A stretch of 63,033 bases of DNA, filler included, from Jimgerdemannia flammicorona (lineage: Eukaryota), in NCBI GenBank assembly GCA_003990765.1. It is 2 parts of 2 records of this genome, joined end to end, with 100 filler letters (N's around TTAATTAATTAA, not from the genome) between each part and the next. Parts side by side here need not be neighbours in the genome. Positions count along the whole stretch, not along the records: positions 1 to 31,477 come from RBNJ01000394.1; 1 more part is not named here. One strand, written 5' to 3'. The notes under the pieces are model-generated. The model saw nothing but the letters and a program-made list of their open reading frames with translations, did no database searches and was not told the origin of the DNA. Both the position numbers and the translations under genes were made by a program. This document shows positions 635-29,100 of the stretch, in pieces; within the stretch, counting starts at the first letter, position 1, and each line of letters starts with the position of its first letter.

Positions 635-804
635 ACTTAATGCCCATTGGCTGGTGATTCAAGATGAATACCTCACTTTCAAGCTAAACAACAAACAACT
701 GCCCCTACCCGAACAACCATACAAACTGAGCCCCAATACTCAGATAAGATGGATATGAGACCACCAGTATTCTATGGATATACCTCAGATAAATTAATCA
801 TCAC

Positions 805-2296
805 TGTAAGAGGGTTACTTTTTAGGGTGACCGTTATGTAGTTCTGGAAGGGTTTTCTAGATATTCTGGATGTTCTGGAAGACCGTTTTCTTATGGTCAA
901 GATCAATTTCATATGGAGTACATCCTCTATGCTTATTGATTTCAAGATTGGATTGATGTCTCAACCAAAGTCCTTTTTCGGACTAGTTCTAGATGTTCAG
1001 GATTTTCCGTATTTTAGGAAGTTCAAGAAACTAAGACCAGCTTAGTTGAATTGGTGTATCGCTGCAGACAATACCCAATTAGGAAATTTCATGACAGAGT
1101 TAGGAGTAGGACCTAACAGGGAGCAGATTTACTTAAGAGTGGTTTGTGGGTTATGGAATAGGTTTATTTGCTATTCATGATATTGCTATACTAGGAGTAT
1201 TTGTGTGAGGGAATATTGTGGGGAAGTGCTCAGGAGTTGTGTTCGGATTGTTCAAGTCTGAGATTCTGAGGTCTGGGGGAGGGGGTATTTATACTAGTGA
1301 GGGGCTATCTGGACTAGGCTAGATATGGATATAGCACTAAGTGCTTTGTTGAGTTGGAATGCAGTTATGTAGTATAAGTGTGATCTGACATGTCAAGAGA
1401 TCGTCTGACTGCTGAGTCAGTTCACAGTCATGTCGTACAATGCTAATCTAACTATACTATGACTGCTAAGCTATTTATAGATTTAGGCACTGTCTGGTTA
1501 GTCTTTGATGACATCACTATTGATGACATCATCACTGGCAAAGTCTGAGCAGTTTTCTGACTTCTAACATCATCAGTTTTCAAGATGTCGTCACTTCTAT
1601 CTCTTGTAAGATTAAGACTGTCCTTGGTGGTGGTGGTTGTACAAGGGTAACAGGTCTTGGTTCTCTTTTTTTTTGGTCTGCTAGTGCATTTGCGAGGACT
1701 GGCCATTCTCGTCTAGGGCAAGGGCTCTCAATGTCGTGGCTGGGGGTTCGAACCTCTTGGAAATGATATTTTCTGTAATCCGAGGCAATTTCTAGTAGTA
1801 ATATCTGTCACATGGATGGCTTGAGATTGGTTTCGACATTGTCGGCTTTCTTGAGTTCAGATGTAGTGTCCGTCACTCTCTAACGGAGGTGACACAGATA
1901 AAGCGAACAGAGTTGTTCAAATGTGTTTTGCTTCTGCTAAGTAATGAGGTCTTGTATAGTCATGGTATATCTTGGTCTTGAGTTGATAAGTGCAGTTCGT
2001 GAATCTTTTGATGGGTGAGATAGGGTTCTTCTTGTCTTGATTTGAGTTTGGTACTTTTGGTTTCTTTTATAATAGTACAGTACACCAAACTAGCTATAGC
2101 AGTTCAGAGTCAGTCTTATGGTTGTAGTACTTCTTCTAGTATTCTTGTATCTTGGCGGTGGGTTCTCATGCTTGCTGGCATATTTGTGTAACCAGATGAT
2201 CTCTTCAGTAACTTGTTTTGTAGTCTCACATGTAGTTTCCAAATTAGTCCTGAGGATACCATGCAATTTTGGTGGCTTGGAGGTTGTGTACTTACA
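805..2296 (-). repeat. 3' LTR of element A
   Basis: Direct repeat of 5688-7179; adjacent PPT at 2298-2310. Confidence 0.95.
1701..1767 (+). ncRNA. tRNA-like (possibly Asp-GTC-derived) Pol III cassette inside LTR A, copy 1
   Basis: A-box-like TCGTCTAGGG, B box GGTTCGAACC (1745-1754) in a T-arm-like stem, ATGTCG loop, TTTT at 1769-1772. Too short or imperfect for a canonical cloverleaf. Confidence 0.5.
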
Positions 2297-2309
2297 ACTC
2301 TCCCCTTCT

Positions 2310-2455
2310 TAGCTTTCGACGTCCTCGTCGGGGCCTTCTAATTTGTTCTGGTATTGTTGTACCATTTGGATGGTTCTTGTGACTATATTTGTTGAGGATT
2401 TGTTCAACCTTGTATTCTTCTTGGTCATTAATAATGACAGGTGCAGATGGTTCTG
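2310..2455 (-). pseudogene. Chromodomain N-terminal remnant of element A
   Basis: Translates APVIINDQEEYKVEQILNK, resembling the start of chromovirus integrase chromodomains; directly before the PPT. Confidence 0.65.
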
Positions 2456-2459
2456 TGGT

Positions 2460-3045
2460 TCAGTTTGGAAATGTGTCTCGGACCTTCTGGAGTAGTGGTC
2501 TGACACGGCTGTCAACTTTGGAAAAATCTTCTTCAGAGTTCTCAGGTTCTCCTTTGGATGGTCGGATGGAGATGGCAAAGAGAGGGCATTTCTTGGCCAA
2601 TTTCTTGAGTTGTAGCTTGTTGATGTGGGTGATCTTTGGTCCAGGGTCACTAGAGTTGAGTGAGTCCTTTTCGCCTTGTAGTTTGAAGTTGTGGCATTCT
2701 TTCTTGATGGTCAGGGAATGGTTTACCCAATCGATCATGGGGTTCTCTTGTTTCAACCATGGAGTCCCAAGGATGATTTCATTATCAGAAAGTGGTACGA
2801 TTTGGAGGGTAACATGTACTCAGTAGTCACCAATTCGGAAGGGTAAATTGCAGACTTCTTTGCTAATAACATGTGAGGTTCCATCAGCTGTAGCAACTGC
2901 TTGAGTTTGCTGTACTGGGGAGGTGAAGACCTTGAGTCTATTGGCTGTCTCTTCATTAATGAAGTTGCCTGAGGCACCACTGTCTATCATAATCTTAACA
3001 GGTGCTCCATTGACAAAAGCTTTAAGGGTGAGCAGTTTGTCTGAT
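2460..3045 (-). pseudogene. Aspartic protease and pre-RT linker of element A
   Basis: IMIDSGASGNF, ILGTPW...IDW, ending LLQKVRDTFPN; TGA stop at ~2820. Confidence 0.9.
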
Positions 3046-3254
3046 CCAATGCTGGTGATTTCAGTTGTAGGAGCTTTCCTTCTATTGGTTCTTCTTTGAG
3101 CCAGTTCGTTGACACAAGAGAAGCAATCATCAATCATTCGGGAAGAATACATTCCAATACCATGAGGGCATCGGCCACTTGGTACATATCTATCTTCGAT
3201 CTTCTTGTAGAATTGTTCTTCTTTGCTCATGATAGGTTGGGCTGGGGCTTTGTT

Positions 3255-3655
3255 TGATGAGCCAAATCCTTGGGATCCTTGGATGGTGGGTAGTAGTTCA
3301 GGGACTTCCTTGACTGTTAGGGTTAACTTGATTTTTTCGAATAGGATCTGGGCGATGCAAAAGCCAATAGGGATCTTGAAGGGTGTCCAACTGTGGTTTC
3401 GGATGAGGACAATGATTTCGCCTGTGTAATCTTCGTCAATGACTCCTCCTTCTACTGAGAGTCCTTTCAGTGCTAGGCTGCTGCGACAGCATATTCTTCC
3501 AACATGTCCTTCATGGATTTGGATACTGATTCCTGTATAGACTTGTTTGACTTCTCGGTTGGAAACTGTAGCTTCTTCGGCTGCATACAGGTCATATCCG
3601 GCTGCTTTTTGGCTTCCTTTGGTTAGGGCCTTAGCAGTTTGTCTTAACTTGACAA
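3255..3655 (-). CDS. dut: Trimeric dUTPase domain of element A (within ORF 2820-3755)
   Basis: Motifs AGYDL, RSSL, GVIDEDYTGEI, RIAQ-like CIAQ, GSQGFGS. Confidence 0.93.
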
Positions 3656-3739
3656 AGTCTAGTGTTCTGGTGGTCAGGTTGTTGAGGTGGTACAGAGTTG
3701 TAACAGTTGCTCGTGTTGCTGTTCGGGGTTTTTGGTTGG

Positions 3740-5650
3740 GGCAGGCACTAGCCATGTGTCCTGTCTTTCGGCAATAGAAGCATACTCCGCTTCTTCGAAG
3801 TTCATTCCATTCACCCTCAGTAAGTTTCTTGAAGGTACTGGACTGGGTAGGTTCATGATTTCTGGGTGTCCAAGAGGTGGATGTGGAGGGAGCTCAGGAT
3901 GCTTCATGCTTGGGTTCTTCTTTCTTGGTCCAAGTCTTTTCCTTGTTGTTGAATTGTCTTCAGGGCAGAATTGGTCCAGCTGTTAGGATTCGCTTGACCA
4001 TGGTCTTGATTCTTACTAGGCACCATTGTTGGTGATCGCAACCAACTGGGCGGCCTTGTTCTCAGATTTTTCTAGTAAGCCATTCAGGTAGTGCATCGAA
4101 TAAATGGTCTGCTCTTGTACCATTTCATGCTTCACCATTGGTGATATATCCTAGGCCAACAGTGTTTAGGAGTGACTCGAGTTTTGTACAGAAAGTTTCG
4201 AATTCTTCCTTGCCATGTACATCGAATTTGAGGTTGCGGAGTTTTACTCGAGATTCAGCAATCATGGTTTCACTGTGGTATTGAGCAATTATGAGTTGTT
4301 TGAGTCCAGGGGCTGCAGGATGAGCTCCATATCCTGGGCATTGTTTGCTGCATTCTGGGCAACTACTGCAGGTCGGGTATCCCATGTGAGGGGTTTTTCA
4401 GGAAGGGTTTGCCACCATTCTTCGGCAGGTCCTCGGAAGAATGTAACAACTCGGCGGACATAAGCTGTAGTTGTAGCAAAGAGTTATTCTAGGGTGTGGT
4501 CTTGATTGTTTGTCAGAACGCGATCAGCAACTCGCTCATTAGTCCATTGATTGGCTTCGAAGTTGGTGTCAACTACACTAATGAAGCTTTGGACTTCTTG
4601 TGCAGTACTATTGAAGGTAGGTAGGCTCAGATTTTTGGTAGGTCGGGTCTGTTCAGCTAAGGCAGTAATGGTTGCTGCCATTATAGCCACTTGGGCTGTG
4701 AGGTCTAGAATCTGTTGGTTCACCATATTGTTTACTGGAGGCGGCTGGACTGCCGGTAGTGGTGTTACTGGTACTACTTGAGGTATAGGTGCAGAGTGTG
4801 ATGGGGTTCTTTGGGTCTGTGTAAGCTACTGGAGTAGTAGTTGTGGGTCTGGAGTGAGGGCTTGATAGATAGCTGTTTGTTGCTGTATAGGTGTATTCTG
4901 TCCTGATGGATGTGTGTCTCCTTCAGTGGTATATCCGGGATCGAATTCGGTGAGATACTCCTCCTCTTCTTCAGTTTGGTCCCCATGTAATTGGGTTTGC
5001 TCGGCATCAAAATAGACAGAATCAGTTGTATATCTGATTTCAGACGGACTTAATTCAAAGTCAAGTTCAGGTTCGGTATTGATTTCAGATTCAGATAGGG
5101 CTGTAGCAGGACCTGCTTCAGGTTCGGGGTCAGGTAGTTGATGAAGGGTTTCTCTTGCTTCTTCTTTGAGAATATGGCGGGCCTTGCTGTTCTGAAATCA
5201 GTAGTATAATGTGGTCTTGGTCCTGGTGCAGTGAAAGTCGGTAGAGTTGAGCCACTTGGCTACAGAGGCTTAGGCTTCGTGAGGAACTAAGGCTAGAAAG
5301 ACTGTTGCTGGTTGTCCTAGGTCACTTGGATTTGTAGAGCTGACAAAACTCTTGTTGAGAAGAGTAAAGAAGACTTCAATAAGACCTTCTTCATCTTGAC
5401 TTGCTGGGTATAGTGCAAGAAGTTTAGTGAATAGGGTTTCGCCTATTTGCTGGTTTAACCGGAGTACTTCTTTCTTAGAATGAAGTTTATCCCACTTGTT
5501 GCAGGTGTGGAGGTCAAATTGTCCTTGTACATCAGGTTCAATTCTCTCCAGATTGTCAGATTGTTCAGATAAATTCCAGTTCAGAGGTTGGGCTTTATAC
5601 CAACTTGTAGGAATTCGCAGAGGGGTTTGTAGCGGGGTGAGGAAGCATCT
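3740..5650 (-). pseudogene. Gag of element A with long N-terminal extension and CCHC knuckle
   Basis: CFYCRKTGHMASAC at ~3740-3785; capsid-like FFRGPAEEWW; reading frame traceable with few stops from just after the PBS. Confidence 0.8.
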
Positions 5651-5673
5651 TGAAGCGGAATTGGATTGTAAAT

Positions 5674-5684
5674 CGCTGCTACCA
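5674..5684 (-). promoter_or_regulatory. Primer-binding site of element A, initiator-Met tRNA type
   Basis: TGGTAGCAGCG 3 nt inside the 5' LTR; matches the 3' end of eukaryotic tRNA-iMet (TGGTAGC). Confidence 0.8.
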
Positions 5685-5687
5685 AGT

Positions 5688-7179
5688 TGTAAGAGGGTTA
5701 CTTTTTAGGGTGACCATTACGTAGTTCTGGAAGGGTTTTCTGGATATTCTGGATGTTCTGGAAGACCATTTTCTTATGGTCAAGATCAATTTCATATGGA
5801 GTACATCCTCTATGCTTATTGATTTCAAGATTGAGTTGATGTCTCAACCAAAGTCCTTTTTCAGACTAGTTCTAGATGTTCAGGATTTTCCATATTTCAG
5901 GAAGTTCAAGAAACTAAGACCAGCTTAGTTGAATTGGCGTATCGCTGCAGACAATATCCAATTAGGAAATTTCGTGACAGAGTTAGGAGTAGGACCTAAC
6001 AGGGAGCAGATTTACTTAAGAGTGGTTTGTGGGTTATGGAATAGGTTTATTTGCTATTCATGATATTGCTATACTAGGAGTATTTGTATGAGGGAATATT
6101 GTGGGGAAGTGCTCAGGAGTTGTGTTCAGATTGTTCAAGTCTGAGATTCTGAGATCTGGGGGAGGGGGTATTTATACTAGTGAGGGGCTATCTGGACTAG
6201 GCTAGATATGGATGTAGCACTAAGTGCTTTGCTGAGTCAGAATGCAGTCACGTAGTACAAGTGTGATCTGATATGTCAAGAGATCATCTGACTGCTGAGT
6301 CAGTTCACAGTCACGTTGTACAATGCTAATCTAACTATACTATGACTGCTAAGCTATTTATAGGTTTAGGCACTGTCTGGTTAGTCTTTGATGACATCAC
6401 TATTGATGACATCATCACTGGCAAAGTCTGAGCAGTTTTCTGACTTCTGACATCATCAGTTTTCAAGATGTCGTCACTTCTATCTCTTGTAAGATTAAGA
6501 CTGTCCTTAGTGGCAGTGGTTGTACAAGGGTAATAGATCTTGGTTCTCTTTTTTTTTGGTCTGCTAGTGCATTTGCGAGGACTGGCCATTCTCGTTTAGG
6601 GCGAGGGCTCCCAATATCGCAGCTGGGGGTTCGAACCTCTCGGAAATGATATTTTCTATAATCTGAGGCAATTTCTAGTAGTAATATCTGTCACATGGAT
6701 GGCTTGAGATTGGTTTCGACGTTGTCGGCTTTCTTGAGTTCAGATGAAGTGTCCATCACTCTCCAATGGAGGTGACACAGATAAAGTGAACAGAGTTATT
6801 CAAATGCGTTTTGCTTCTGCTAAGTAATGAGGTCTTGTATAGTCACAGTATATCTTGGTCTTGAGTTGATAAGTGCAGTTCGTGAACCTTTTGATGGGTG
6901 AGATAGGGTTCTTCTTGTCTTGATTTGAGTTTGGTACTTTCGGTTTCTTTTATAATAGTATGGTACACCAAACTAGCTATAGCAGTTCAAAGTCAGTCTT
7001 ATAGTTGTAGTACTTCTTCTAGTATTCTTGTATCTTGGCGGTGGGTTCTCATGCTTGCTGGCATATTTGTATAACCAGATGATCTCTTCAGTAACTTGTT
7101 TTGTAGTCTTGCATGTAGTTTCCAAATTAGTCCTGAGGATACCATGCGATTTTGGTGGCTTGGAGGTTGTGTGCTTACA
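5688..7179 (-). repeat. 5' LTR of element A
   Basis: Direct repeat of 805-2296. Confidence 0.95.
6584..6650 (+). ncRNA. tRNA-like Pol III cassette inside LTR A, copy 2
   Basis: Same cassette as 1701-1767; GGTTCGAACC intact. Confidence 0.5.
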
Positions 7180-9183
7180 ATTACCTTCATTGATGATTTT
7201 GAGCAGTATACTGCTGTAAGAACCCTGACAGCAGTACAGCAAGTAGCCCTCATGCCCTTCAGCCTATGAGGTCCTGCCAGAGTAGCATTTACAGCCACAA
7301 TCTATGTAGGAAATGATGCTGATGCTATACTGACAGTATAGAAGACCTGGCTCCAAAATACATATTATACAGATGAGATTAAGCAAGTCCTGAAGGATCA
7401 GCTCAACACAACATACCAAGAAATGAGTGAGGATCCAAACACATTCTATACCAGAACTTGATATCAGATAATCCTTGCAGATTATGCTGCTGCTATCCAA
7501 GATCAAGTAGCCGAAGCAACCTTCATAAAAGGAGTTCACCCAGAAATAGCTATGGCCATCTGCTCATCACCAGTGATTCTGGATCTGCCACAGAAGGTCA
7601 CCTATGCTCAGTGATACTGGATAGCCAGACACCCACAAGACCATACAATAGAGAGAGTTACAGGAGTCAGAATCGAGGCACCTAAGTCAACCAGTGTGAT
7701 CCCCACCACAATGATCAATCAAAACACACCTCAGCCCAAAGCTACAAAGCAGTAAAAGAACAGTGACCCTCTGGAGGAACTTACCAAGAGGTTCGTGGAA
7801 ATGACTGCCCACTTGGGGGATATAGTAAAGGAGATCAGAGAAAGAGACCACTACTCTGTCCAGAAGTTTGCTGTCACCTCAGACAAGAAGAAAGACACCT
7901 GCTATACTTGTGGAGAAGAAGGCCACTACTCCTATGAATACATGAGCAAAACCAAGCACAAGGCTCAACCAAGCAATGCTATATGAAACAAGGAGCAGAC
8001 CAATACAATTACCTTTGAGAAAATTGGAGATTCTGATGAAAAAGAATAGGAGGCCTATCCTGCTCAGACTACCAAGAAGGATGTTCACAAGGAACTCTAC
8101 AAGAGATCACCAGGAAGACCCAAGAAGAACCCAGTAGAAAAGTAGATAGAAACAGTTACTGAAAGCCAAGCTAAAGAGATGGACCAAGATATAGAGCTGG
8201 AGCAAGCAGTTCAAGATATTATCTGAGGAACTACCCCAGCCAGCAAAGGAGAAAAAGAAAAGAAACTTTGCAAGACCAAGACTTTTAAGTACAATATCTT
8301 CAAGGACCTTAGCCAACAAAAGGTCAATGCAACCTTTGGTCAGCTTGCAGAAATCCCAACATTCAGACAACAAATGAGGTTCAGACTTGCTGAAACAACC
8401 AAGGAGCAAGGATGGAAGATAACCGAGGCCAATAACATTCAAGAGGACTCAGGAGAAGAAAGTGAAGACAATCGCAAAACCTCTACCTATGTAATATGTC
8501 AAATCGAAGATAGAGTTTTTAATGCTATCATCAATACTGGAGCAGGAGGATGTCTTCTCAGCAAGAAGGCAGCAGACCACCTAGGTTGGGAGGTTGAAGA
8601 AGTAACTAAGTTGGTATTTATCACAGCAGATGGCACAAGAGCTACCCCTCTGGAAAAGATCTGAGATGTCCCCATCAAGATTGGAGAAGCAACCATCTCA
8701 GTAGACATGATTGTAACCAATGCCACTAACTATGACATCCTCATCAGCAATCAATGGCTTCACAAAGCTAGGGCAGTAATCGATCTCAATGCCCAGAAGA
8801 TGCAAATCACCTACCAGGGACAGAGGATACGAATTCCCATCAATATCAACAAAGGAGTCTTGCCTGACATGGAAAAAGAAGAGAGCGAGCAGGAGGAAGC
8901 TTATATGGTAACTATTCCAAAGAGGAAAGTAGAATGGATAAGTAAGGAAGAATAGTGCAAAAAGATCGCAGAAGACTATGCACCACAAGGAGTCTGTTCT
9001 CACAGGATCAAGATGTACTGTATAGAGCATGTCAATGATTGCTATCAATGCACCATCAGAATCAGAAAGATTCACCAGGAAAGAAGACAGAAGGCTCTCA
9101 AAAAACAGATTAGAGAAGAAAAGGAGGAGGAAGATGATGAACCACTAGCCCTTCTGGAGGATAGTGATGATGAAGAAATCAAT

Positions 9184-9600
9184 GTCAAGATTCAAAGAAC
9201 CCACCCTGATGCAGTTCTGCCAGAATACAAGTCAGAAAATATAGCTGGAATAGACATTACTACAGTAGAAGAAGTCATACTGGAACCCCAGACAACCACC
9301 TTACTCGCAACTGGACTGGAAATGACCATTCCAAAAGACCATGTTGGGATCCTCAAGACAAGAAGCAGTCTGGCCAGAAGCAAAATTACAATTGAAGGAG
9401 GAGTCATCGATTCTGACTATACTAGAGAAATCCTGCTCATTGCTAGGAATCACAATCCTACAATTCCATTCTCAGTCAAGAAGAAGGACCAATTGGCACA
9501 GATGCTGATCTTTCCAATCCTATAACCAAGGATCATAGAAGTCAAGGATCTGGAGGAAACGAAAAGAGAAAAGAAAAGATTTGGATCCACAGGAAGAGGA
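9184..9600 (+). pseudogene. dut: dUTPase domain of element B, between protease and RT
   Basis: AGIDI, TRSSLA, GVIDSDYT, LAQM, RFGSTG; stop at 9523. Confidence 0.9.
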
Positions 9601-9839
9601 GTATTCATCAGCACCAAGATCACTGAACTGAAGCATAAGAAGGAGGAAAGCACAAACAAGTACAGCTATATCATTGGAAATGAATTCCCACTCAAGGAGG
9701 AACTCAAGAAAATACTCTATGAATTTGAGGATGTCCTTGCCATGGACTTCAAGGATATCAAAGAAAAGACTCCATACTACTATCACAAGGTAGATACTGG
9801 AGACACCAAACCAATTTACTAGAAGGTAAGACCTGTCCC

Positions 9840-12290
9840 ACCAGCCTACCAAGAATGGCTCAGAGAAGAAATCAAGCAGATGGAAGAAGCTGGTATTATC
9901 AAAGAAGCCAGTAGTCCCTGGTCTTCACCAGTTATACTAGTCCCAAAAAAAGAAAGCAAACCTGGAGAATTTGCCCCAAGACTCTGTGTCGACTACAGAA
10001 AGCTCAATGCAGTTACCAAGAAGGATCACCAACCACTGCCCCTCATCAGTAACATCCTTATAATACTGGGAGATGAAGCATAGTACTGTAGCACCTTGGA
10101 CTTATACTCAGGATTCCACCAAATCGGACTCACAGAGATGGCAAGTAAAAAGTCAGCCTTCATCACTCCAGACGGAACCTACATCTACCTATGAATGCCA
10201 TTCGGGATGTGCAATGCACCAGTAAGCTTTCAGCAAATGATGAACAAAATCTTTCACTATAATATGGGAAGATGGATGATAGTCTATGTTGATGATGTAA
10301 TCATCTACAGCAAGACACCTGAGGAACATCTGCAGCACATATAGCAGATAATAGAGAGACTAAGACAACATGGCCTTTACTCAAACCCAAGAAGTACAAG
10401 TTTGCAGAAATTGAGATCTCCTACCTTGGCCATGTTATCAATCAAGATGGAACATACACAGACCCTCTCAAGATACAAGCAGTAGCAGCATACCCAAGGC
10501 CCACCACTGTTACAGAAGCTCAAGCCTTTATGGGACTTGCCTCCTACTATCACAGATTTATTAGAGGATTCTCCAACATTGCAGGTCCAATCTATGAACT
10601 CAATAAGAAGGATACCAAGTTCCAGTGGACTGGCAGACAACAAAAAGCATTTAATAAACTCAAGATCAGACTAACTCAGGCACCTATCCTCAGATGATCC
10701 AATTGGACTCAAGAATTCATTCTGCAGACAGATGCAAGTGCACAGGGACTAGGAGCAGTCCTAGCTCAAAAGGAAGACAAAAAAGAGTATGTCATTACAT
10801 ACCTTAGCTGTGGAACCCGAGGAGCTGAAAAAGAATACAAATCCTACAAGTTGGAATGCCTTGCAGTCATCTAGACTGTGGAAAAGTTTCATTACTACCT
10901 GGCCAGAAGACACTTCACCATTCAGATGGACCACTCAGCTCTCACCTAGCTACTGACAACTGGACAACCTAAAGGAATCTATGCCAGATGGATAATGAAG
11001 TTACAAGCCTATGATGTAACCATCGTACACCACCCTAGAAGAACAAATTCCAATGCAGATGCTCTCTCACAGATATCTTGAAATACCTTCAACCAACAAA
11101 TCAATTATGAATAAGGAGCTCTACTACAGAATTATCACATATCTGGAACAGCAAAAGATACCCCAACATCTGGAAGAATGGATGCAAATGATTATCAACA
11201 GAACATGGAAACAATTCGAAACTGATGGACAAATACTGAAGAAAGGAAAACTACTAGTCATACCAGAACACAAGAAGGAGTAAGCAATGAAATCAGTACA
11301 TATCTAGGAGGAATGAATACATATGACAAGGTAAGAAGAATGATATGGTGGCCAGAAATGGAGGAAGATATCAGACAATTTGTCAAAACCTATGACAAAT
11401 ACTAGAAACAGAAGTAAGACCAACAAAACCAAGCCCCAAGATCAGCACACATAGAACCAGTACTATTTGCCCATATAGCAATAGATGTAATCAGCCCTCT
11501 ATCCTTGACCCTGACTGGTAACCAATATATCATTATTATCATAGACCTTTTTATGAAGTGGATAGAAGCAGGACTCCTCAAGGAAGCCAATGCACAGTCA
11601 ATTGCCAATTTCTTCTACAAAGAAATCATCTGCTGATTCAAGACCCCAATGCAAGTAACTACAGATAGAGGAACAGAATTCATGAACCAGCTCTTTGAGG
11701 TTCTCTACAAGAAGTACAAGATCTAGTATATTTAGACCACAGCCTATCACCTTAAGGAAATGGACAAGCAGAAAGGACCAACAAGACTCTCAAGAATGTT
11801 ATTGCCAAGATCTGTGATAACTATGAAAACTGGGATCACTATCTACCAATAGCATTATCTGCTCTCTAGGATATCAGATCACAAAGTACCCACTTTATCC
11901 CTTGAGAGATGCTGTTCGAAGAAGAAAGTTCTCGAGAAACCCTATTGTCCAATGGAGACACTATATGGAGACATATGGATGGAGAAATACGGAGACTATA
12001 CTAAATCAGAAAGAAGGCTGAGAATTACATAATGAAGGCACAGACACTACAATGGAAGAATGTGGAAAAAACCCACAAGCCCCTAGAGATTATCAAGATA
12101 GGAGACAAAGTTCTGGTATATCAGAACATAGTAGAAGCCTCATGGTCATGAAAACTGGAGCCCAAGTGGGAAGAACCTTACCTTGTGCAAGATATAAAAG
12201 GAACCACCTTTTGGCTATGAAATCTCTCAGGCACAATCATCCCCACTACCATCTACCAAAACTGACTCAAGAAGTATCATGACCAGTTAA
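9840..12290 (+). pseudogene. RT, RNase H and integrase of element B
   Basis: SPWSSPVILVPKK, LCVDYRKLN, MPFG, YVDD, LQTDAS, integrase core and GPY/F-like tail. Confidence 0.93.
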
Positions 12291-12359
12291 TGAAGTAATA
12301 CTGCTGCTCTCAGAATTACTAGCACAACCCAGCAAGCCATTGAAAGACAGTGATGTTCC

Positions 12360-12781: not shown

Positions 12782-13252
12782 TGTGATGGCTGATCTGAAT
12801 TAGTAACATAAAACAGGAGAATTAGACATTTGATCATAGTATCTGAATCCGATTCCCAATATAGCTTAGCTTCATAAATAGCAGCCACATTCCATAAAGT
12901 ACAGAAACTTTAATATTTACAAAGATTTAGGAGATATTAGAATCTTCATGATCAGCGAAATCTTAGCAGATGTTAAAAGATTCAATACTTGCGAAATGAG
13001 CCATTACTTAGCCACCTTATAGTTAGCAAAACTTGTATAAATAACCCAGTATCTTAGAGTGAATAAAACTCAGATTGAAATAGTTTAAAAGCAAAGAGAT
13101 AGCAAAGGAACTAGTAAGCCTGCAGGCAGATATACTTCAAACTCACCCACCCTCTCCTGTAACTCAAGAGACTCTGCGAGAGTCAGAACAATTAAGTTTT
13201 CAAGATACAGAAATCCAATGTACTTTCAAGAGTAAGCATCCACTATATTACA
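12782..13252 (+). repeat. 3' LTR of element B
   Basis: TGTGATGG...TATTACA; preceded by PPT. Confidence 0.93.
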
Positions 13253-14068
13253 ATATATAAATTATCACTATACTCAAAGAATTATCCTAATAAGGAAATT
13301 GACTGTTATATCTAAATTGACTATTATATTACTAAATACTAACAAGGAATCTTAGAATATTTTGTTGTTTTTTGATAAAGTAACTAGAGGCTCAAGTCAA
13401 ACTATATTAACCCCCAATCTTGTAATTTGCCTTCATTGAGTCAGACACATTATAATATATAGAACTTCTTTAGTAAAATCTTCTTCTTAATATCTTTTTA
13501 GTATTTTTTTCATTTTGAAAAATTCTTCTGAATTCTTCTTTCAGATTTTGTATAAATATTTTTGCTTAGAAATTATTTAAAAATACTTAAACTTTTAGTA
13601 TTTCTTCAAGCTACTTTAGATTTACTAGAACTTTTAAATTTAGTTACTTTTTCTTAAAGAAACTAGAACAGTTATATTTGATAGTAGTAGTGAAGTTATA
13701 TTTTATTTATTATGAAATCTCATATAAATTTATAAATTAGTTATAACTAATCATATATATAAACTTAAAATAATTAATAAAGAAGAACTAGTCTGACTGA
13801 GTTATACTGAAAAAGAGAAGTTTATTTTAATAAATATAGAGGAAATTCTAAATAGTATAATATATCAGATTTGAAATTTATAAGTATAACTAGAATATCA
13901 GTAAATTAGAGATCTATAGCTCATCTAATAATTATATTTACTGTAATATAATAGATATATATTAGCAGAAGTATAGCAGATTTCTTTATCTTAAATACTT
14001 GATCTTCTTCAACTCCTTGGAGTTCTCAAATATAGGAGTAAGTAAGTTCAAAAGTATTTGCTTACAGG

Positions 14069-17422: not shown

Positions 17423-18948
17423 TGTAACAGTGACCCCAGAATGATGACATTAGTACAGAAGACAGCCTTTCCTTGCAAGCCACCAGATCAAAGTACAAGA
17501 AGATCATACAGTATACAAGATGAGCAATGATGACCAACTGTGAGTCATTGTGACTACAGTATAAGCATCCTGAAGAATATAAAAGAAGGATTAAGGAACC
17601 ACAGTAGCAGCAACCAACAAGAACCACTAATCCCAAAATAGCTCAAAGACTTACCACAAATGAAATGCCTGCTGCCTGCCAAACCTCAAGATCAAGGAAT
17701 CACCAAGGGATCTTGGTCGAGGAAAGGATGTTCCAAGACATCAGAAGAGCTGTGGGGACCTGCTCAAGAAGGACAGTATCAACCTGGGTACTACAGACCC
17801 TTATCACTTCATTCTCTACTACTGTGAAATAGAAACAAGGATCACTATTGCTACCAAATGCCTCTAAATGTGGCAGGAGTACAAAATAGGAAACCTCCTC
17901 TGCCAGGAGTTCCCACAGACCAGTATCCAAGAGCTACAAGATGCCACTCCTATGAATATATGTAAAACAAGGACAGCTAAGAAGATCTATCAGATCTTCA
18001 GGCATGTATCATAATTGATCCCCAACTTGGAGTATGTTAGAGTCTCAGACTTCAGAGACCTGACATCTCACCATATCAATGCACTAGAAGCCAGGGTGGC
18101 TATAGAAGCCCAGTCTACTATCACCCTCAACAGCAAAGAAGTAGAAGACTTCTGGCACTCTATCCTTCAGGACAACTCAGACCAATTCCTGCAAGAATTG
18201 ATCTCAGTATTCCAAGGCCCAAGCATCCAGATTAGACCTCTCCAAGACTCCACATTTGTTCCCTATTTTGTGGAAGAGAACCTCATAGACTAGAGAGCTC
18301 CAGATCTTGTTCTCGATTTCCCCACTGAACATAATGATGTCATCAGTGATGATGTCATCCCATGTGACATACACGAAATGTGTGACCTATATGACGAGTT
18401 CATAGATCTCATCTCCTTCAGTAATGATGATGATGAGGATGAAGCTCCTATAGTCCTGAACTTTCTGCTCTAAGTTCTTTGTTATACTGGATAATACCAG
18501 CATCGGTATTCTCATGTAACACTGGATAATGCCAGCACCAGTATTCTGAGGTGATGCAAAATTGTTCCAGCACTGGCATTTTGATGTGACACTAAATAAT
18601 ATCAGTATCCTGAACCTGTACAACCACCAGTGCCAGCCCTGGAACTTAGTAGTTTTAGTTATTAGAATTTATATTTAGCTTTATATCTTAGTAACCATTG
18701 AATTATATATTGTATAAATACCCCTCTTATTTCCTCTGAAATAAAGTCAGTCAAGTTCACTTATACATATTTCCTTACAAGCAATCTAAGAGATAACAAG
18801 ATAGTTAAAGATAAGAAGTTTGAGGACTATAAGACCTTGGGAAGATACTCCAATAAGAACTTACTTATAACAAACTTGAGTTAGTCTAAGAGATATATCT
18901 TGAAGAGAATCTGGTGTATTTGAAGGACTCAGCGACCACTATGTGATA
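17423..18948 (+). repeat. 5' LTR of element C
   Basis: Direct repeat of 24620-26114 with an extra ~30-bp internal duplication near 18485; TATAAATA at ~18713 and AATAAA at ~18740. Confidence 0.93.
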
Positions 18949-19068
18949 ACTTGGTGTCCATTGGCTGGTGATTCAAGATGAATCCCTTACTTTCAAGCTG
19001 AAAAACAAACAACCTCCACAATAACTACCCTGACTACAAGAGTTACCCCTACAAGAATTCAAGACAAG

Positions 19069-24619: not shown

Positions 24620-26114
24620 TGTAATGGTGACTCCAGAATGATGACATCAGCACAGGAGACAGCCTTTCCTTGTAAGCCACCAGATCAAAGCACAAGAAGA
24701 TCATACAGTATATGAGATGAGCAATGATGACCAACTGTGAGTCATTGTGACCACAGTACAAGCATCCTGAAGAATATAAAAGAAGGATCAAGGAACTACA
24801 ATAGCAGCAATCAATAAGAACCACCAATCCCAAAATAGCTCAAAGACTTACCACAAATGAAATGCCTGCTGCCTGCCAAACCTCAAGGTCAAGGAATCAC
24901 CAAGATATCTCAGTCAAGGAAAGAATATTCCAAGACATCAGAAGAGCCATAGGGACCTACTCAAGAAAGACTCCTAGTGTCAACCTGGGTACTGCAGACT
25001 CTTATCACTTCATTCTCTACCACTATGAAATGGAAACAAGGATCGCTATTGCTACCGAATGCCTCCAAATGTGGCAGAAGTACAAAATAGGAAACCTCCT
25101 CTGCTGGGAGTTCCCACAGGCCAGCACCCAAGAGCTACAAGATACCACTCCCATAGATATACACGAAACAAGAATAGCTAAGAAGATCCATCAGATCTTC
25201 AGACATGTACCATGGTTGATCCCCAACTTGGAGTATGTTAGAGTCTCAGACTTCAGAGACCTGTCATCCTGCTGTATCAATGCACTAGAAGCCAAAGTGG
25301 CTACAGAAGCCCAGTCCACTATCACCCTCAACAGCAAAGAAGTAGAAGACTTCTGATACCCTATTCTTCAGGACAACCCAGACCAATTCCTGCAAGGATT
25401 GATCTCAGTATTCCAAGGCCCAAGCATCCAGGTTAGACCTCCCCAAGACCCCACATTTGTTCCCTATTTTGTGGAAGAGAACCTCATAGACTGGAGAGCT
25501 CCAGATCTTGTTCCTGATTTCCCTGCCAAACATAATGACATCATTGGTGATGATGTCATCCCACACAACATATGTGAAATGCATGACCTATATGACAAGT
25601 TCATGGATCTTATCTCCTTCAGTGATGATGATGATAAGGATGAAGCTCCCATGGTCCTGAACTTTCTGCTCTAAGTTCTTTGTTACACTGGATAATGCCA
25701 GCACCAGTATTCTGAGGTGATACGAAATTGTTCTAGTACTGGCATTTTGATGTGATACTAAATAATGCCAGCATCCTGAACCTGTACAACCATCAGTGCC
25801 AGCCCTGGAACTTAGTAGTTTTAGTTATTGGAATTTATATTTAGCTTTATATCTTAGCAACTATTAAATTATATTTTATATAAATACCCCTCTTATTTCC
25901 TCTGAAATAAAGTCAGTCAAGTTCACTTACACACACTTCATTGCAAGCAATCTAAGAGATAACAAGACAGTTAAAGATAAGAAGTTTGAGGACTATAAGA
26001 CCTTGGGAAGGCACTCCAATAAGAACTTGCTTATAACAAACTTGAGTTAGTCTAAGTGATACACCTTGAAGAGAATCTGGCATATTTGAAGGACTCAGTG
26101 ACCACTACATAATA
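24620..26114 (+). repeat. 3' LTR of element C
   Basis: Direct repeat of 17423-18948. Confidence 0.93.
24862..25674 (+). pseudogene. ~270-codon accessory ORF within U3 of LTR C (second copy ~17665-18472)
   Basis: One frame from ATG 24862 to TAA 25674 with a single TGA at 25354 that is TGG in the other LTR. Confidence 0.75.
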
Positions 26115-29100
26115 ATATATAAGAATAGCTTCTAGTCTAATTGAGCTTGTATCTATCTGTAAGATAAACTCTTGAGATAAGTCAGATCTCCTCAAGATAG
26201 GTATTTGAGTTAAACAGATCTTAAGATATTCAAATATTTATTATTTTCTATCAGTCTATTGGAACTTGATATCTTTTTTAAACAATTTATAGATAAAACT
26301 TATAATGTTAGATAAATCTCTTATAATAGATAGTGAGTTCTATAAAGACTTGAGCTTCAGTAACTATAGTAGATCTTAGATAGGCTTCAACTATTTAAAT
26401 CTTGATAGAGTCTATATAAGTTCTATTCTAATTAATAATATATCCAAGATGGAAGATCTCAATTTCTCTAAACTTATACTTCTTTGACTTGATAAATAGA
26501 TTATAATCTCTTGTTTCTACAGAATTCAGTGAATATAATCCAGATATTTCTTAACTATCTTACTGTAGATAACTATATCATCTATATAGATCATTATTAA
26601 TTTTTTCATATCTTCTCTAAAGATCTTATTCATTATTCTTTGAAAACTTACTGAGATATTACACATTCTGAATGATATTTATAGGTAGACATAGATTTTG
26701 TCTAGAGTGATAAAGACTGACTTTTTGCCAGCTTCTCTGGTAAGGCTAATTTGATAGAATTCTGAGTATAAATCTAAGATAGTATAGTATTATACTTTAT
26801 CTTTTAGTATCACTAGAATATCACTAATAAGGGATAGCAGGCAGTGATCCTTCTTGGTAACTTCATTCAGTTTTCTATAGTCTGTATAGAGCCTTGAGAT
26901 AAATTCTCCTGGCTTACTTTCTTTCTTTAAGACTAGTATAATTAGTAAGAACCAGAGACTGATGGTCTCTTTGATAATATCAGCTTCTTCTATTTACTTG
27001 ATTTTCTCTCTGAGCTATTTATAATATGCTGGTGGAATTATTCTTACTCTTTAATTGATTGGCTCAGTGTTTTCTATATCTATATTATAATAATAGTATG
27101 GTATCTTTTCTTTGATATTCTTAAAATCAGTGAAAGAACATCTTTGAATTTATATAGTAGTTTCTTGAGTTTCTTTGAATAAAAATTCATTTTCAATAGT
27201 ATGGCTTTACTTATCTATAATTTCCTCCTTTTTGTGGTCTAATTTAGTAATATTGATACTGATAAAAACTCCTCTTCTTATATCCAAATCCTCTTCTTTC
27301 TTTTTTCATTTCCTCCAGCTTCTTGACTTCTAAAATCTTGAGTTATAGTACTAAAAAGATCAGTATTTATATAAGTTAATTCTTCTTCTTAATTGCAAAT
27401 GGAATTATGAGGTTGTGGTTTCTGATAATAAGTAAGATTTCTCTAATATAATTAGAATTGATAACTTCTCCTTCAATCAAAATTTCACTCTTGGCTAGAC
27501 TACTTCTTATCTTGAGTATTCTAATATAGTTCTTGAGAATAGTTATCTCTAGTCTAGTTGTGAGTAAAGTTGTTATCTGAGGTTTGAGAATTATCTCTGC
27601 AACTGTAACAATATCTATTCTAGTTATATTTTCTGAATTATATTCTAATAGAACTATATCAGAATAAATCTTCTGAATCTTGATCTTAATTTTCTCTTTA
27701 TCATCACTATCCTCTAGAAGGACTAGTGGTCTATCCTCCTGATCTTTCTTTTCTTACTACTTCTGTCTTCTTTTCTTCTTCTCATAATAAAGCTTATAGA
27801 TCTTAATAATATATTAGTAATACTTATTTATATGTTTTATATAGTATATTCAAATTCTATGAGAATATACTTCTTGTAGGATATATCTTTCAGTAATTTT
27901 GTATTAGTCTTCTTTACTAATCTATTTGATCTTCTTCTTACTTGCTACCTTTTTTATCTATCTTAGAGAGTACTTCTTTATTGATATTGATAATAATTTA
28001 CATCTTTGTTCTCAGTAGAAAATCTGTATCTTCTGGAAGTTTATATCAATTATATATAGTTCTGGTCTTATATGTAAATCCACTGATTGCTAATGAGGAT
28101 ATCATAGTTGATAATATTCATGATAATTATATCTACTAAAATGGTTATTTTTCTGAACTTGATAGGAATATTCCAAATTTTTCTCAGAGAGATAGCTCTT
28201 ATACTATCTGCTGTAATAAATATCAATTTTATAGCTTCTTCAATTTTCCAACTTAGGTAGTTTATAGCTTTCTTACTAAGAAGTTATCCTTCTGCTTCTT
28301 TATTAATGATAGCTTCAAAGATTCTATTCTCAATCTGATAAATAGTATAGACAGAGATCTTATAGTTATCTTCTTTACTTTCTTTATCTGAATCCTCCTA
28401 TATATTATTAGTCTCAACTATTTTTCATTCTTGATCTTTGACTGTTTCTATAAGTCTCAGTCTCATTTGCTATCTGAAGGTAAAGATTTCTATCAACTAT
28501 CTAAATATTATATCAACTTTTTGTTAGCTGAAATCTTTAAAGATATTATACTTAAAGGTTTTACTCTTTTGCAGCTTCTTCTCTTTTTTCTCTTCACTAG
28601 TAGGAGTATTGTCTTAGATAATATCTTTGACTATTTATTTGAGCTCCATATCTTGATTTATTTCTTCAGCTATATTTTTAATTTCTGTAGATACTTCTAC
28701 TTATTCTTCTGCAGGTCTTTTGTAGGATTTCTGATAGATATTTTTCTTAGGAATAAGAGTTAAATAAGCTTTCTATTCTTTCTCTTTCTCTGATTCTTCA
28801 ATTTCTTCAAAGGTGATAATATTAATCTGTTCATAGTTCTTAGTAATATTGCTTAACTGGGTCTTATACTTGGTCTCACTCATATATTTATAGAAGTAGT
28901 GGTCTTCTTCTCTATAAGTATAGCAGATTTCTCTCATCTTATCTATAGTAGTGGCAAACTTCTTAATAAGTTCCTTTATAGAATTATTGTTTTTTTTTTA
29001 CTGCTCTATAGTCTTAGATTAAGATATGTTTCAATTGATTACTATTATAGAAATTATACTAATTATCTTAAGTACTTTAATTCTGACTTCTGTAACTCTT

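What the first reader, a model, noticed from the sequence alone, without database searches (positions are those of the whole stretch)
1701..1772. tRNA-like Pol III cassette embedded in both LTRs of element A
The consensus of the two copies (also 6584-6655) is GCCATTCTCGTCTAGGGCGAGGGCTCCCAATGTCGCGGCTGGGGGTTCGAACCTCTCGGAAATGA, followed by TTTT. It has an A-box-like motif, a perfect B box in a T-arm-like stem and an Asp-like TGTCGC loop. The B-box CpG survives in both LTRs despite CpG decay nearby. It lies antisense to the element, though the B box is palindromic. Cassandra elements carry 5S sequences in their LTRs; a tRNA-derived cassette could give Pol III transcription or TFIIIC insulation against silencing (inference).
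Basis: partly seen in the sequence, partly recalled or inferred. Interest (0 to 1): 0.7.

Follow-up and report, generated by a model that had tools for sequence, protein, structure and literature searches.

The report
Backwards tRNA relic in retrotransposon LTR
The terminal repeats of an abundant, probably fungal jumping gene carry, back to front, what looks like the worn 3' half of a tRNA gene; it keeps one of the two RNA polymerase III promoter boxes but decays like the DNA around it, so it is most likely a passenger rather than a working switch.

Summary
The motif is real and sits in U3 of both 1,492-bp LTRs of a pol-less Ty3/gypsy chromovirus derivative (at least 631 copies of the motif in the genome). 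Only 34 nt (1723-1756; anticodon loop to T arm) are tRNA-like beyond chance: 12.8 bits, E=0.005 with a host-tRNA profile; 0 of 600 shuffled LTRs reach 12. There is no cloverleaf, and Rfam, ARAGORN and covariance-model support are absent. The A box scores 2.3 bits (host minimum 10.1). The isotype is not Asp: Lys, Arg, Trp and iMet fit better. The B-box CpG is not protected: 29 of 88 copies keep it, against 35 of 86 at a same-context site. Being antisense, it cannot make the genomic RNA as Cassandra does. Unexpected: pol-bearing relatives carry a second antisense tRNA-like tract behind the chromodomain, which raises the odds of tRNA ancestry. Best reading: a passively carried tRNA-derived relic (0.5). 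Rivals: chance match in ex-coding U3 (0.23), working TFIIIC/Pol III site (0.17). The scan noted antisense tRNA relics behind chromovirus pol, and Helenus-type LTRs, in other genomes; not this sequence.

The parts
1723..1756 (+). tRNA-like core in the 3' LTR (tRNA positions about 30-63: anticodon loop C32 U33 NNN A37 A38 at 1725-1731, 5-nt variable loop, T arm)
   Evidence: top hit of a host-tRNA profile in the window, 12.8 bits, E=0.0052; register read from the sequence
6606..6639 (+). same core in the 5' LTR
   Evidence: 6.6 bits, E=0.43; LTR alignment
1742..1758 (+). T-arm-like stem-loop holding the B box (1745-1754; 6628-6637 in the 5' LTR)
   Evidence: motif scan; PWM 13.3 bits, host range 9.5-18.4
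   Evidence: 2.3 bits, host minimum 10.1; lineage differences at the matching 5'-LTR positions 6590 and 6593
   Evidence: 6.1-7.4 bits; LTR background 90th percentile 6.2, maximum 8.8; its CpG kept in 5 of 87 copies
1769..1772 (+). T4 run (marginal Pol III terminator)
   Evidence: sequence
805..2296 (-). 3' LTR of element A, TG...CA, 1,492 bp
   Evidence: self-alignment; termini shared by family copies
5688..7179 (-). 5' LTR of element A
   Evidence: 63 differences from the 3' LTR, 62 of them transitions
800..804 (.). target-site duplication, left copy (right copy 7180-7184; 4 of 5 bases match)
5674..5684 (-). primer-binding site, 11 nt complementary to the 3' end of host tRNA-iMet; same orientation as the cassette
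   Evidence: host iMet genes found; exact match
2298..2310 (-). polypurine tract
   Evidence: sequence; shared by 3' LTR copies
2820..3893 (-). open frame with Gag zinc knuckle, dUTPase and aspartic protease
   Evidence: Pfam PF00098, PF00692, PF13975; 87-92% identical to pol-bearing sister elements
2368..2472 (-). 105-nt remnant between two deletions: about 470 nt next to the PPT (held the pol end and the second tRNA-like tract) and about 2.65 kb of RT/RNase H/integrase
   Evidence: alignments to L065 and L317
1538..2227 (-). U3 interior specific to the A-type LTR; stop-poor on the sense strand, with its own TATA-like motif at 2064-2071; replaced by a different, ORF-bearing U3 in the sister family
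   Evidence: sister shares LTR positions 1-733 and the first 69 nt of U3 only; stop depletion
1286..1293 (-). TATA-like motif, presumed Pol II promoter of the LTR, about 450 nt from the B box and facing away from it
   Evidence: motif in the sequence only; function inferred

Best explanation
The cassette is the decayed 3' half of a tRNA sequence (about positions 30-63; donor unresolved among Lys, Arg, Trp and initiator Met) that became fixed in the U3 of one LTR type of a Ty3/gypsy chromovirus family and has been copied along with it. Shown: location, copy number, antisense orientation, similarity above chance, absence of cloverleaf and A box, context-rate decay. Inferred: it entered as a copy of a packaged tRNA made during reverse transcription, which yields exactly this orientation (that of the PBS), or as an antisense tRNA pseudogene. 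Inferred: with no good A box and pointing away from the element's RNA it is neither a tRNA gene nor the element's promoter, and most likely does nothing that selection maintains.
For: Profile of 27 host tRNAs ranks 1723-1756 first in the window (12.8 bits, E=0.0052; next unrelated 6.0). 0 of 600 shuffled LTRs reach 12 bits and 0 of 3000 shuffled cassettes reach 8. In 267 kb of distinct non-family DNA every hit of 6 bits or more was a tRNA gene. Best host match Lys(CTT) 34 of 47, reached by 0 of 300 and 1 of 1000 shuffles. No protection: B-box CpG kept in 29 of 88 copies against 35 of 86 at the other TCGA site (Fisher p=0.35); 20 of the first 100 of 631 unanchored matches keep it (counted by eye). 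A box 2.3 bits. 82 of 88 copies have 150 nt or more of LTR on both sides, and the other 6 alignments also run into LTR sequence.
Against: Covariance-model scores (6.9-12.2 bits) are at background level. One unrelated 80-nt window of 3138 beats the best pairwise score (42.5 against 41.5). An 8.8-bit profile hit occurs in an unrelated spot of a metagenome locus. The sense strand of U3 is stop-poor, which hints at a coding past. The B-box CpG is kept slightly more often than pooled TCG/CGA sites (33% against 24.5%, p=0.078). Decay of inserted copies does not measure selection on the master elements, and the lineages are too close to test that. None of 27 distant metagenome relatives showed a tract of 12 bits.
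Confidence: 0.5

Rival explanations
1. Chance look-alike: the A-type U3 interior is a degenerate accessory protein gene on the element's sense strand, like the ORF in the sister's U3, and the B box and T stem are accidents of its reverse strand.
For: Stop triplets on the sense strand of U3 are depleted (22-29 against 39-46 expected; 0 of 300 shuffles in each of 5 copies), unlike the R-U5 half. A TATA-like motif precedes the region. The sister LTR holds an ORF-like U3 in the same place. Covariance-model scores are at background level.
Against: All three frames carry stops shared by nearly all copies, and one-base indels are shared by dozens of copies. Differences between lineages show no clear third-position bias. 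No protein relatives: two phmmer hits were repeat artefacts, 0 hits, no Pfam, no match to the sister ORF. It does not explain the second antisense tRNA-like tract.
Confidence: 0.23
2. Working TFIIIC site or weak Pol III promoter in active master elements: the B box (perhaps with the candidate A box 64 nt upstream) recruits TFIIIC about 450 nt upstream of the LTR's Pol II promoter and acts as a chromatin boundary, or makes a short antisense RNA ending at the T4 run.
For: B box scores within the host range. No lineage-level change of the B box among the first 100 of 631 unanchored matches; nearly all changes are C>T/G>A decay. Every element form seen keeps at least one antisense tRNA-like tract: sister behind pol, pol-bearing A-type both, pol-less A in U3. 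B-box-only TFIIIC (ETC) sites act as boundaries in yeast (PMC3395662, start of abstract only).
Against: CpG loss at the context rate; the box-destroying TG variant is not significantly rarer than at other sites (CA:TG 36:21 against 588:488, p=0.22). Non-CpG divergence of the cassette's 5' half equals that of its flanks. A-box candidates are within background. The more abundant sister LTR lacks the U3 cassette.
Confidence: 0.17
3. RNA-level tRNA-binding site: on the element's RNA the tract is complementary to tRNA and serves as the 3' half of a bipartite primer-binding site, as in Ty3, or aids strand transfer.
For: It lies in U3 in PBS orientation; Ty3's 3' PBS segment lies in U3 and binds the T and D arms of tRNA-iMet (PMC5371799, passages). 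The cassette windows give the best duplex with host iMet along the LTR (-49.6 against median -23.4 kcal/mol).
Against: No exact match of 7 nt or more to iMet inside the cassette. The duplex is stronger with Lys and Trp than with the primer and is interrupted throughout; the region is also G+C-rich. Two 8-nt matches to the iMet D arm lie next to the PBS instead. The sister LTR lacks it.
Confidence: 0.07

Closest known systems
Helenus (TRIMp3; Kojima 2024, PMC10886601; parts 1-4 of 6 of the text and searched passages read, supplements not seen)
   Same: Non-autonomous LTR element with PBS, PPT and 5-bp TSD; tRNA-like sequence in both LTRs; GGTTC of box B kept; not a functional tRNA.
   Different: Helenus are 311-1263 bp and non-coding, with LTRs up to 323 bp, and mostly keep TRGCY and YGG of box A; fungal Helenus resemble Copia at the PBS. 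Element A is 6.4 kb with 1.5-kb LTRs, encodes Gag-dUTPase-protease, is a gypsy chromovirus derivative, lacks a good A box, and the tract is antisense. The passages read do not state the orientation in Helenus.
Cassandra TRIMs (as described in PMC10886601)
   Same: [quoted passage not shown]
   Different: Cassandra's sequence is 5S-derived and drives the element's own RNA from the 5' LTR to the 3' LTR. Here it is tRNA-like, points the other way, and could not span 6 kb.
Ty3 bipartite PBS (PMC5371799, passages read)
   Same: tRNA-complementary sequence in U3 of a Ty3/gypsy element primed by tRNA-iMet.
   Different: No exact complement of 7 nt or more to iMet in the cassette; it resembles several tRNAs loosely over 34 nt.
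tRNA-Lys3-gene-like sequence in HIV-1 U3/R (recalled; search did not retrieve the paper)
   Same: A degenerate, inverted tRNA-like tract in U3, read as a relic of tRNA capture.
   Different: There it matches the primer tRNA and was reported to aid strand transfer; here the donor is unresolved and no function is shown.
Extra-TFIIIC (ETC) B-box sites of yeasts (PMC3395662, start of abstract only)
   Same: B box without a good A box.
   Different: ETC sites are host loci with shown TFIIIC binding; here binding is untested and the box decays in most copies.

Membership tests
Helenus / TRIMp3 | TRIM: short (311-1263 bp), no coding capacity | tested here: not met
   6,375 bp, 1,492-bp LTRs, Gag-dUTPase-protease frame
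Helenus / TRIMp3 | tRNA-derived sequence in both LTRs | tested here: inconclusive
   3' half above chance by profile; covariance model at background
Helenus / TRIMp3 | box B (GGTTC) conserved | tested here: met
   present in both LTRs; no lineage variant among the first 100 of 631 matches; decays after insertion
Helenus / TRIMp3 | box A (TRGCY ... YGG) conserved | tested here: not met
Helenus / TRIMp3 | Pol III promoter placed to transcribe the element's RNA | tested here: not met
   antisense to gag and in PBS orientation; T runs follow within 20-300 nt
Helenus / TRIMp3 | Pol III transcription in vivo | not testable with these tools
   needs RNA or ChIP data
tRNA gene | cloverleaf above tRNA thresholds | tested here: not met
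   ARAGORN 0; Rfam none at E<=10 in 700-7300; CM 6.9-12.2 bits; folding z not significant
tRNA-derived SINE insertion | copies outside the LTR, own TSD and tail | tested here: not met
   all 88 pattern-selected copies lie in LTR context; candidate counts for cassette and U3 flank alike, 1651 and 1627 (rough, only 40 scored each); no tail or TSD seen by eye
Ty3/gypsy chromovirus | PR-RT-RH-IN order with chromodomain at the integrase end | tested here: met
   met in relatives with the same LTR (L327: RNase H, rve; L142: SH3, Chromo) and in sisters with RT; the window copy has lost pol
Ty3-type bipartite PBS | exact U3 complements to the T and D arms of the primer tRNA | tested here: not met
   no match of 7 nt or more inside the cassette

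The most novel reading that the evidence does not exclude
A family of large gypsy chromoviruses keeps tRNA-derived B-box sites back to front at its 3' end as working TFIIIC/Pol III elements, captured twice from packaged tRNAs (once behind pol, once in a swappable U3 module), so that every form of the element retains at least one. They would shield the LTR promoter from silencing or make a regulatory antisense RNA: a use of captured tRNA sequence different from the sense promoters proposed for Cassandra and Helenus.
Probability: 0.15. Interest if true: 0.62.

Novelty: new variant of a known kind. Interest (0 to 1): 0.3.

Why it matters
tRNA-derived sequence in LTRs is known from miniature elements (Helenus), where it is thought to be the promoter. 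A backwards tRNA relic in the U3 of a large, protein-coding gypsy element, with a second one behind pol, suggests that LTR elements capture tRNA sequence more often than assumed, in the orientation that reverse transcription of a packaged tRNA would give. If the B box binds TFIIIC it would be a portable boundary present in hundreds of copies. As it stands it is a relic with no shown function, and a caution that CpG survival in one LTR pair is not evidence of selection.

Tried and rejected
Asp identity: rejected. His- or Glu-type D arm register: pattern search for a longer version found 0 matches; host Glu(CTC) scores 28.0. Minus-strand reading of the palindromic B box: weaker (pairwise best 29.0; no 5-bp stem; folding z +0.90). 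CpG retention of 61 of 70 and 22 of 29: discarded as biased, because those copies were chosen by likeness to the window; the pattern-selected set gives 29 of 88. Of 90 loci in that set 88 distinct copies passed the filter. Independent SINE: not supported. ARAGORN at relaxed threshold on sister U3: noise. Protein relatives of U3 frames: P0001 two repeat artefacts; P0002 none among 14 candidates; the third frame was scanned against Pfam only; post-pol frame none among 65 candidates. Homology between the two tRNA-like regions: weak and not in register (3, 2 and 163 of 200 shuffles under three scorings). Exact 20-nt B-box pattern in metagenomes: 0. Distant chromoviruses: 27 loci at 30-55% identity, 19.7 kb behind pol; best profile hit 8.8 bits, upstream of a following gag-like frame; Rfam 0 in 20 of 27 loci; CM nothing in 19 of 27. 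Expression: no RNA holder listed, which is no evidence either way. Contigs of 4 runs laid on the LTR cover it with near-identical copies and add nothing on function. Literature: searches showed no listing on an antisense tRNA-derived tract in the U3 of a large gypsy element; only listings were seen for most, and the library lacks most subscription papers. PMC10730233 passages held nothing relevant. The host lineage was not tested; 'fungus' is inferred from the chromovirus, a mitochondrial-type UCA tRNA and unchecked earlier notes.

Full report
Setting. Element A spans window 805-7179 on the minus strand. Its LTRs (805-2296, 5688-7179) are 95.8% alike, end in TG...CA and are flanked by a 5-bp duplication with one mismatch. 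Of 63 LTR differences 62 are transitions. An 11-nt PBS matches the 3' end of host tRNA-iMet and a PPT precedes the 3' LTR. The inside holds a Gag zinc knuckle, dUTPase and protease but no RT; other full copies have the same layout (L153, L154, L159). Sister elements with a 2-kb LTR share LTR positions 1-733 and the first 69 nt of U3, are 87-92% identical in the Gag-dUTPase-protease frame and have RT and RNase H (4 of 6 loci fetched). Some copies with the A-type LTR keep RNase H, integrase and a chromodomain. So A is a pol-deleted derivative of a Ty3/gypsy chromovirus, presumably moved in trans (inference). The host is probably a fungus (inferred, not tested).

The observation. A short pattern finds 631 copies in the genome. 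The B box scores 13.3 bits on a host-tRNA matrix (range 9.5-18.4). A B box alone appears in 7.4% of 1000 shuffled LTRs, and with a 5-bp stem in 0.4%.

It is not a tRNA gene. ARAGORN finds nothing in the window and Rfam gives no tRNA hit at E<=10 in 700-7300. A covariance model from 27 host tRNAs scores the two copies 8.5 and 6.9 bits, below unrelated hits of 9.9 and 9.2; other copies score 7.4-12.2. Folding is no better than shuffles. The proposed A box scores 2.3 bits against a host minimum of 10.1; a better candidate 64 nt upstream scores 6.1-7.4, in the upper tail of background. Host tRNA-Asp matches 15 of 34 positions counted from the T loop; Lys(CTT) and Arg(TCT) match 24 and Trp 23; iMet scores 34.5 in local alignment, like Trp at 35.0.

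The 3' half is tRNA-like beyond chance. A sequence-only profile of the host tRNAs ranks 1723-1756 first in the window (12.8 bits, E=0.0052; 5' LTR copy 6.6; next unrelated 6.0). None of 600 shuffled LTRs reached 12 bits (maximum 11.4) and none of 3000 shuffled cassettes reached 8. In 267 kb of distinct non-family DNA, all hits of 6 bits or more were tRNA genes. Against this: one unrelated window of 3138 beat the best pairwise score, an unrelated 8.8-bit hit turned up in 27 metagenome loci, and the site was picked from a very large scan.

A second tract. The same background scan exposed another tRNA-like stretch, also antisense, about 130-190 nt inside the PPT and behind the chromodomain. It is present in 17 distinct copies held, of both LTR types, and lies in a 470-nt piece deleted from the window's element. 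It covers model positions 5-59, scores up to 13.6 bits (0 of 1000 shuffles reach 10), reaches 15.5 bits on the covariance model in one copy, and has an A box of 9.9 bits at tRNA spacing with a B box of 9.0. Other copies score 5-9 bits and Rfam gives no tRNA hit. The two tracts do not align in register.

The CpG argument fails. Ten of the 21 CpGs in each LTR are shared by both LTRs. Copies chosen by likeness to the window keep the B-box CpG in 61 of 70 or 22 of 29 cases, but that choice favours young copies. Among 88 copies chosen by a pattern that leaves the CpG free, 29 keep it, against 35 of 86 at the other TCGA site of the LTR (p=0.35) and 24.5% at pooled TCG/CGA sites (p=0.078). With the whole box left free, 20 of the first 100 listed matches keep it (by eye) and 18 of 30 keep an intact core. 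The box-destroying variant is not significantly rarer than elsewhere (p=0.22). This shows no protection after insertion; it cannot exclude selection on master elements. Lineages within the genome differ too little to test that.

A coding past? Earlier notes of this scan describe accessory genes in U3 in this genome (unchecked except that the sister U3 translates as a long frame). But all frames have stops shared by nearly all copies, one-base indels are shared widely, no clear third-position bias shows, and no protein relative was found. This rival stays open at about 0.23.

How it most likely works. Shown: a 34-nt tRNA-like tract with an intact B box, no A box, no fold, antisense, decaying at the context rate, absent from the more abundant sister LTR. 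Inferred: it was captured once, probably as a copy of a packaged tRNA during reverse transcription, since that gives PBS orientation, and has since travelled in the U3 module without a job (0.5). It cannot drive the genomic RNA. A TFIIIC site or weak Pol III promoter in master elements remains possible (0.17): the box shows no lineage variant, and each element form seen keeps at least one tract. A Ty3-like second primer site is unlikely (0.07): no exact match of 7 nt or more to iMet lies in it.

Comparison. It works at most like the tRNA-like part of a Helenus LTR, but is not a Helenus: size, coding content, box A and orientation fail (PMC10886601, parts 1-4 of 6 read; that paper also notes that 'not a few' LTRs hold tRNA-like parts). 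Five searches listed no paper on this arrangement in a large gypsy element; the library is incomplete. The scan has noted antisense tRNA relics behind chromovirus pol and Helenus-type LTRs in other genomes, and no look-alike of this sequence. Verdict: a probable tRNA relic, a new variant of a known kind, interest 0.3.

Noticed in passing
L142:911-967 (-), L077:810-866 (-), L065:2217-2274 (+), L149:1916-1986 (+); deleted at window 2368/2369: Second antisense tRNA-like tract behind the chromodomain, with an A box at tRNA spacing and a B box, in 17 distinct copies of both LTR types; loop reads Val(CAC)-like by eye, best pairwise match host Met.
   Followed up: partly
window 5616-5623 and 5639-5646: Two exact 8-nt complements to the D arm of host tRNA-iMet 30-60 nt inside the PBS, recalling the extended primer contacts of Ty1; each has about a 1 in 10 chance by my rough estimate.
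   Followed up: no
L160:2630-4670; junction at window 1537: Sister family with a 2-kb LTR shares R-U5 and the LTR start with A but has another U3 holding a long frame of more than 300 codons; U3 behaves as a swappable module. About twice as many candidates for the shared half (4197) as for the A-type U3 (1627-2003).
   Followed up: partly
window 1505-1590 and 6388-6473: Several near-palindromic TGATGACATCA-type repeats at the point where A-type and sister U3 diverge.
   Followed up: no
window 1538-2227 (-): Stop-poor sense strand with its own TATA-like motif; possibly a degenerate accessory gene without known relatives.
   Followed up: partly
L151:3256-4740, L066:2105-3084 and many pattern-selected copies: Older copies show heavy C>T and G>A decay outside CpG as well, down to 73-81% identity; TCG and CGA contexts decay slowest.
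   Followed up: partly
window 7180-12300 and 163-800: Element A is inserted into another gypsy element (protease, dUTPase, RT-like and RNase H-like frames on the plus strand; repeat 168-635 / 12786-13253).
   Followed up: no
window 17423-18949 and 24620-26115: A second LTR element with 1.5-kb LTRs 88% alike; no B box in them by the same motif scan.
   Followed up: partly
L043, L044, L046, L053, L059, L183, L187, L188: A+T-rich, partly clustered tRNAs of mitochondrial type, one with a UCA anticodon; mitochondrial contigs or nuclear copies of them.
   Followed up: no
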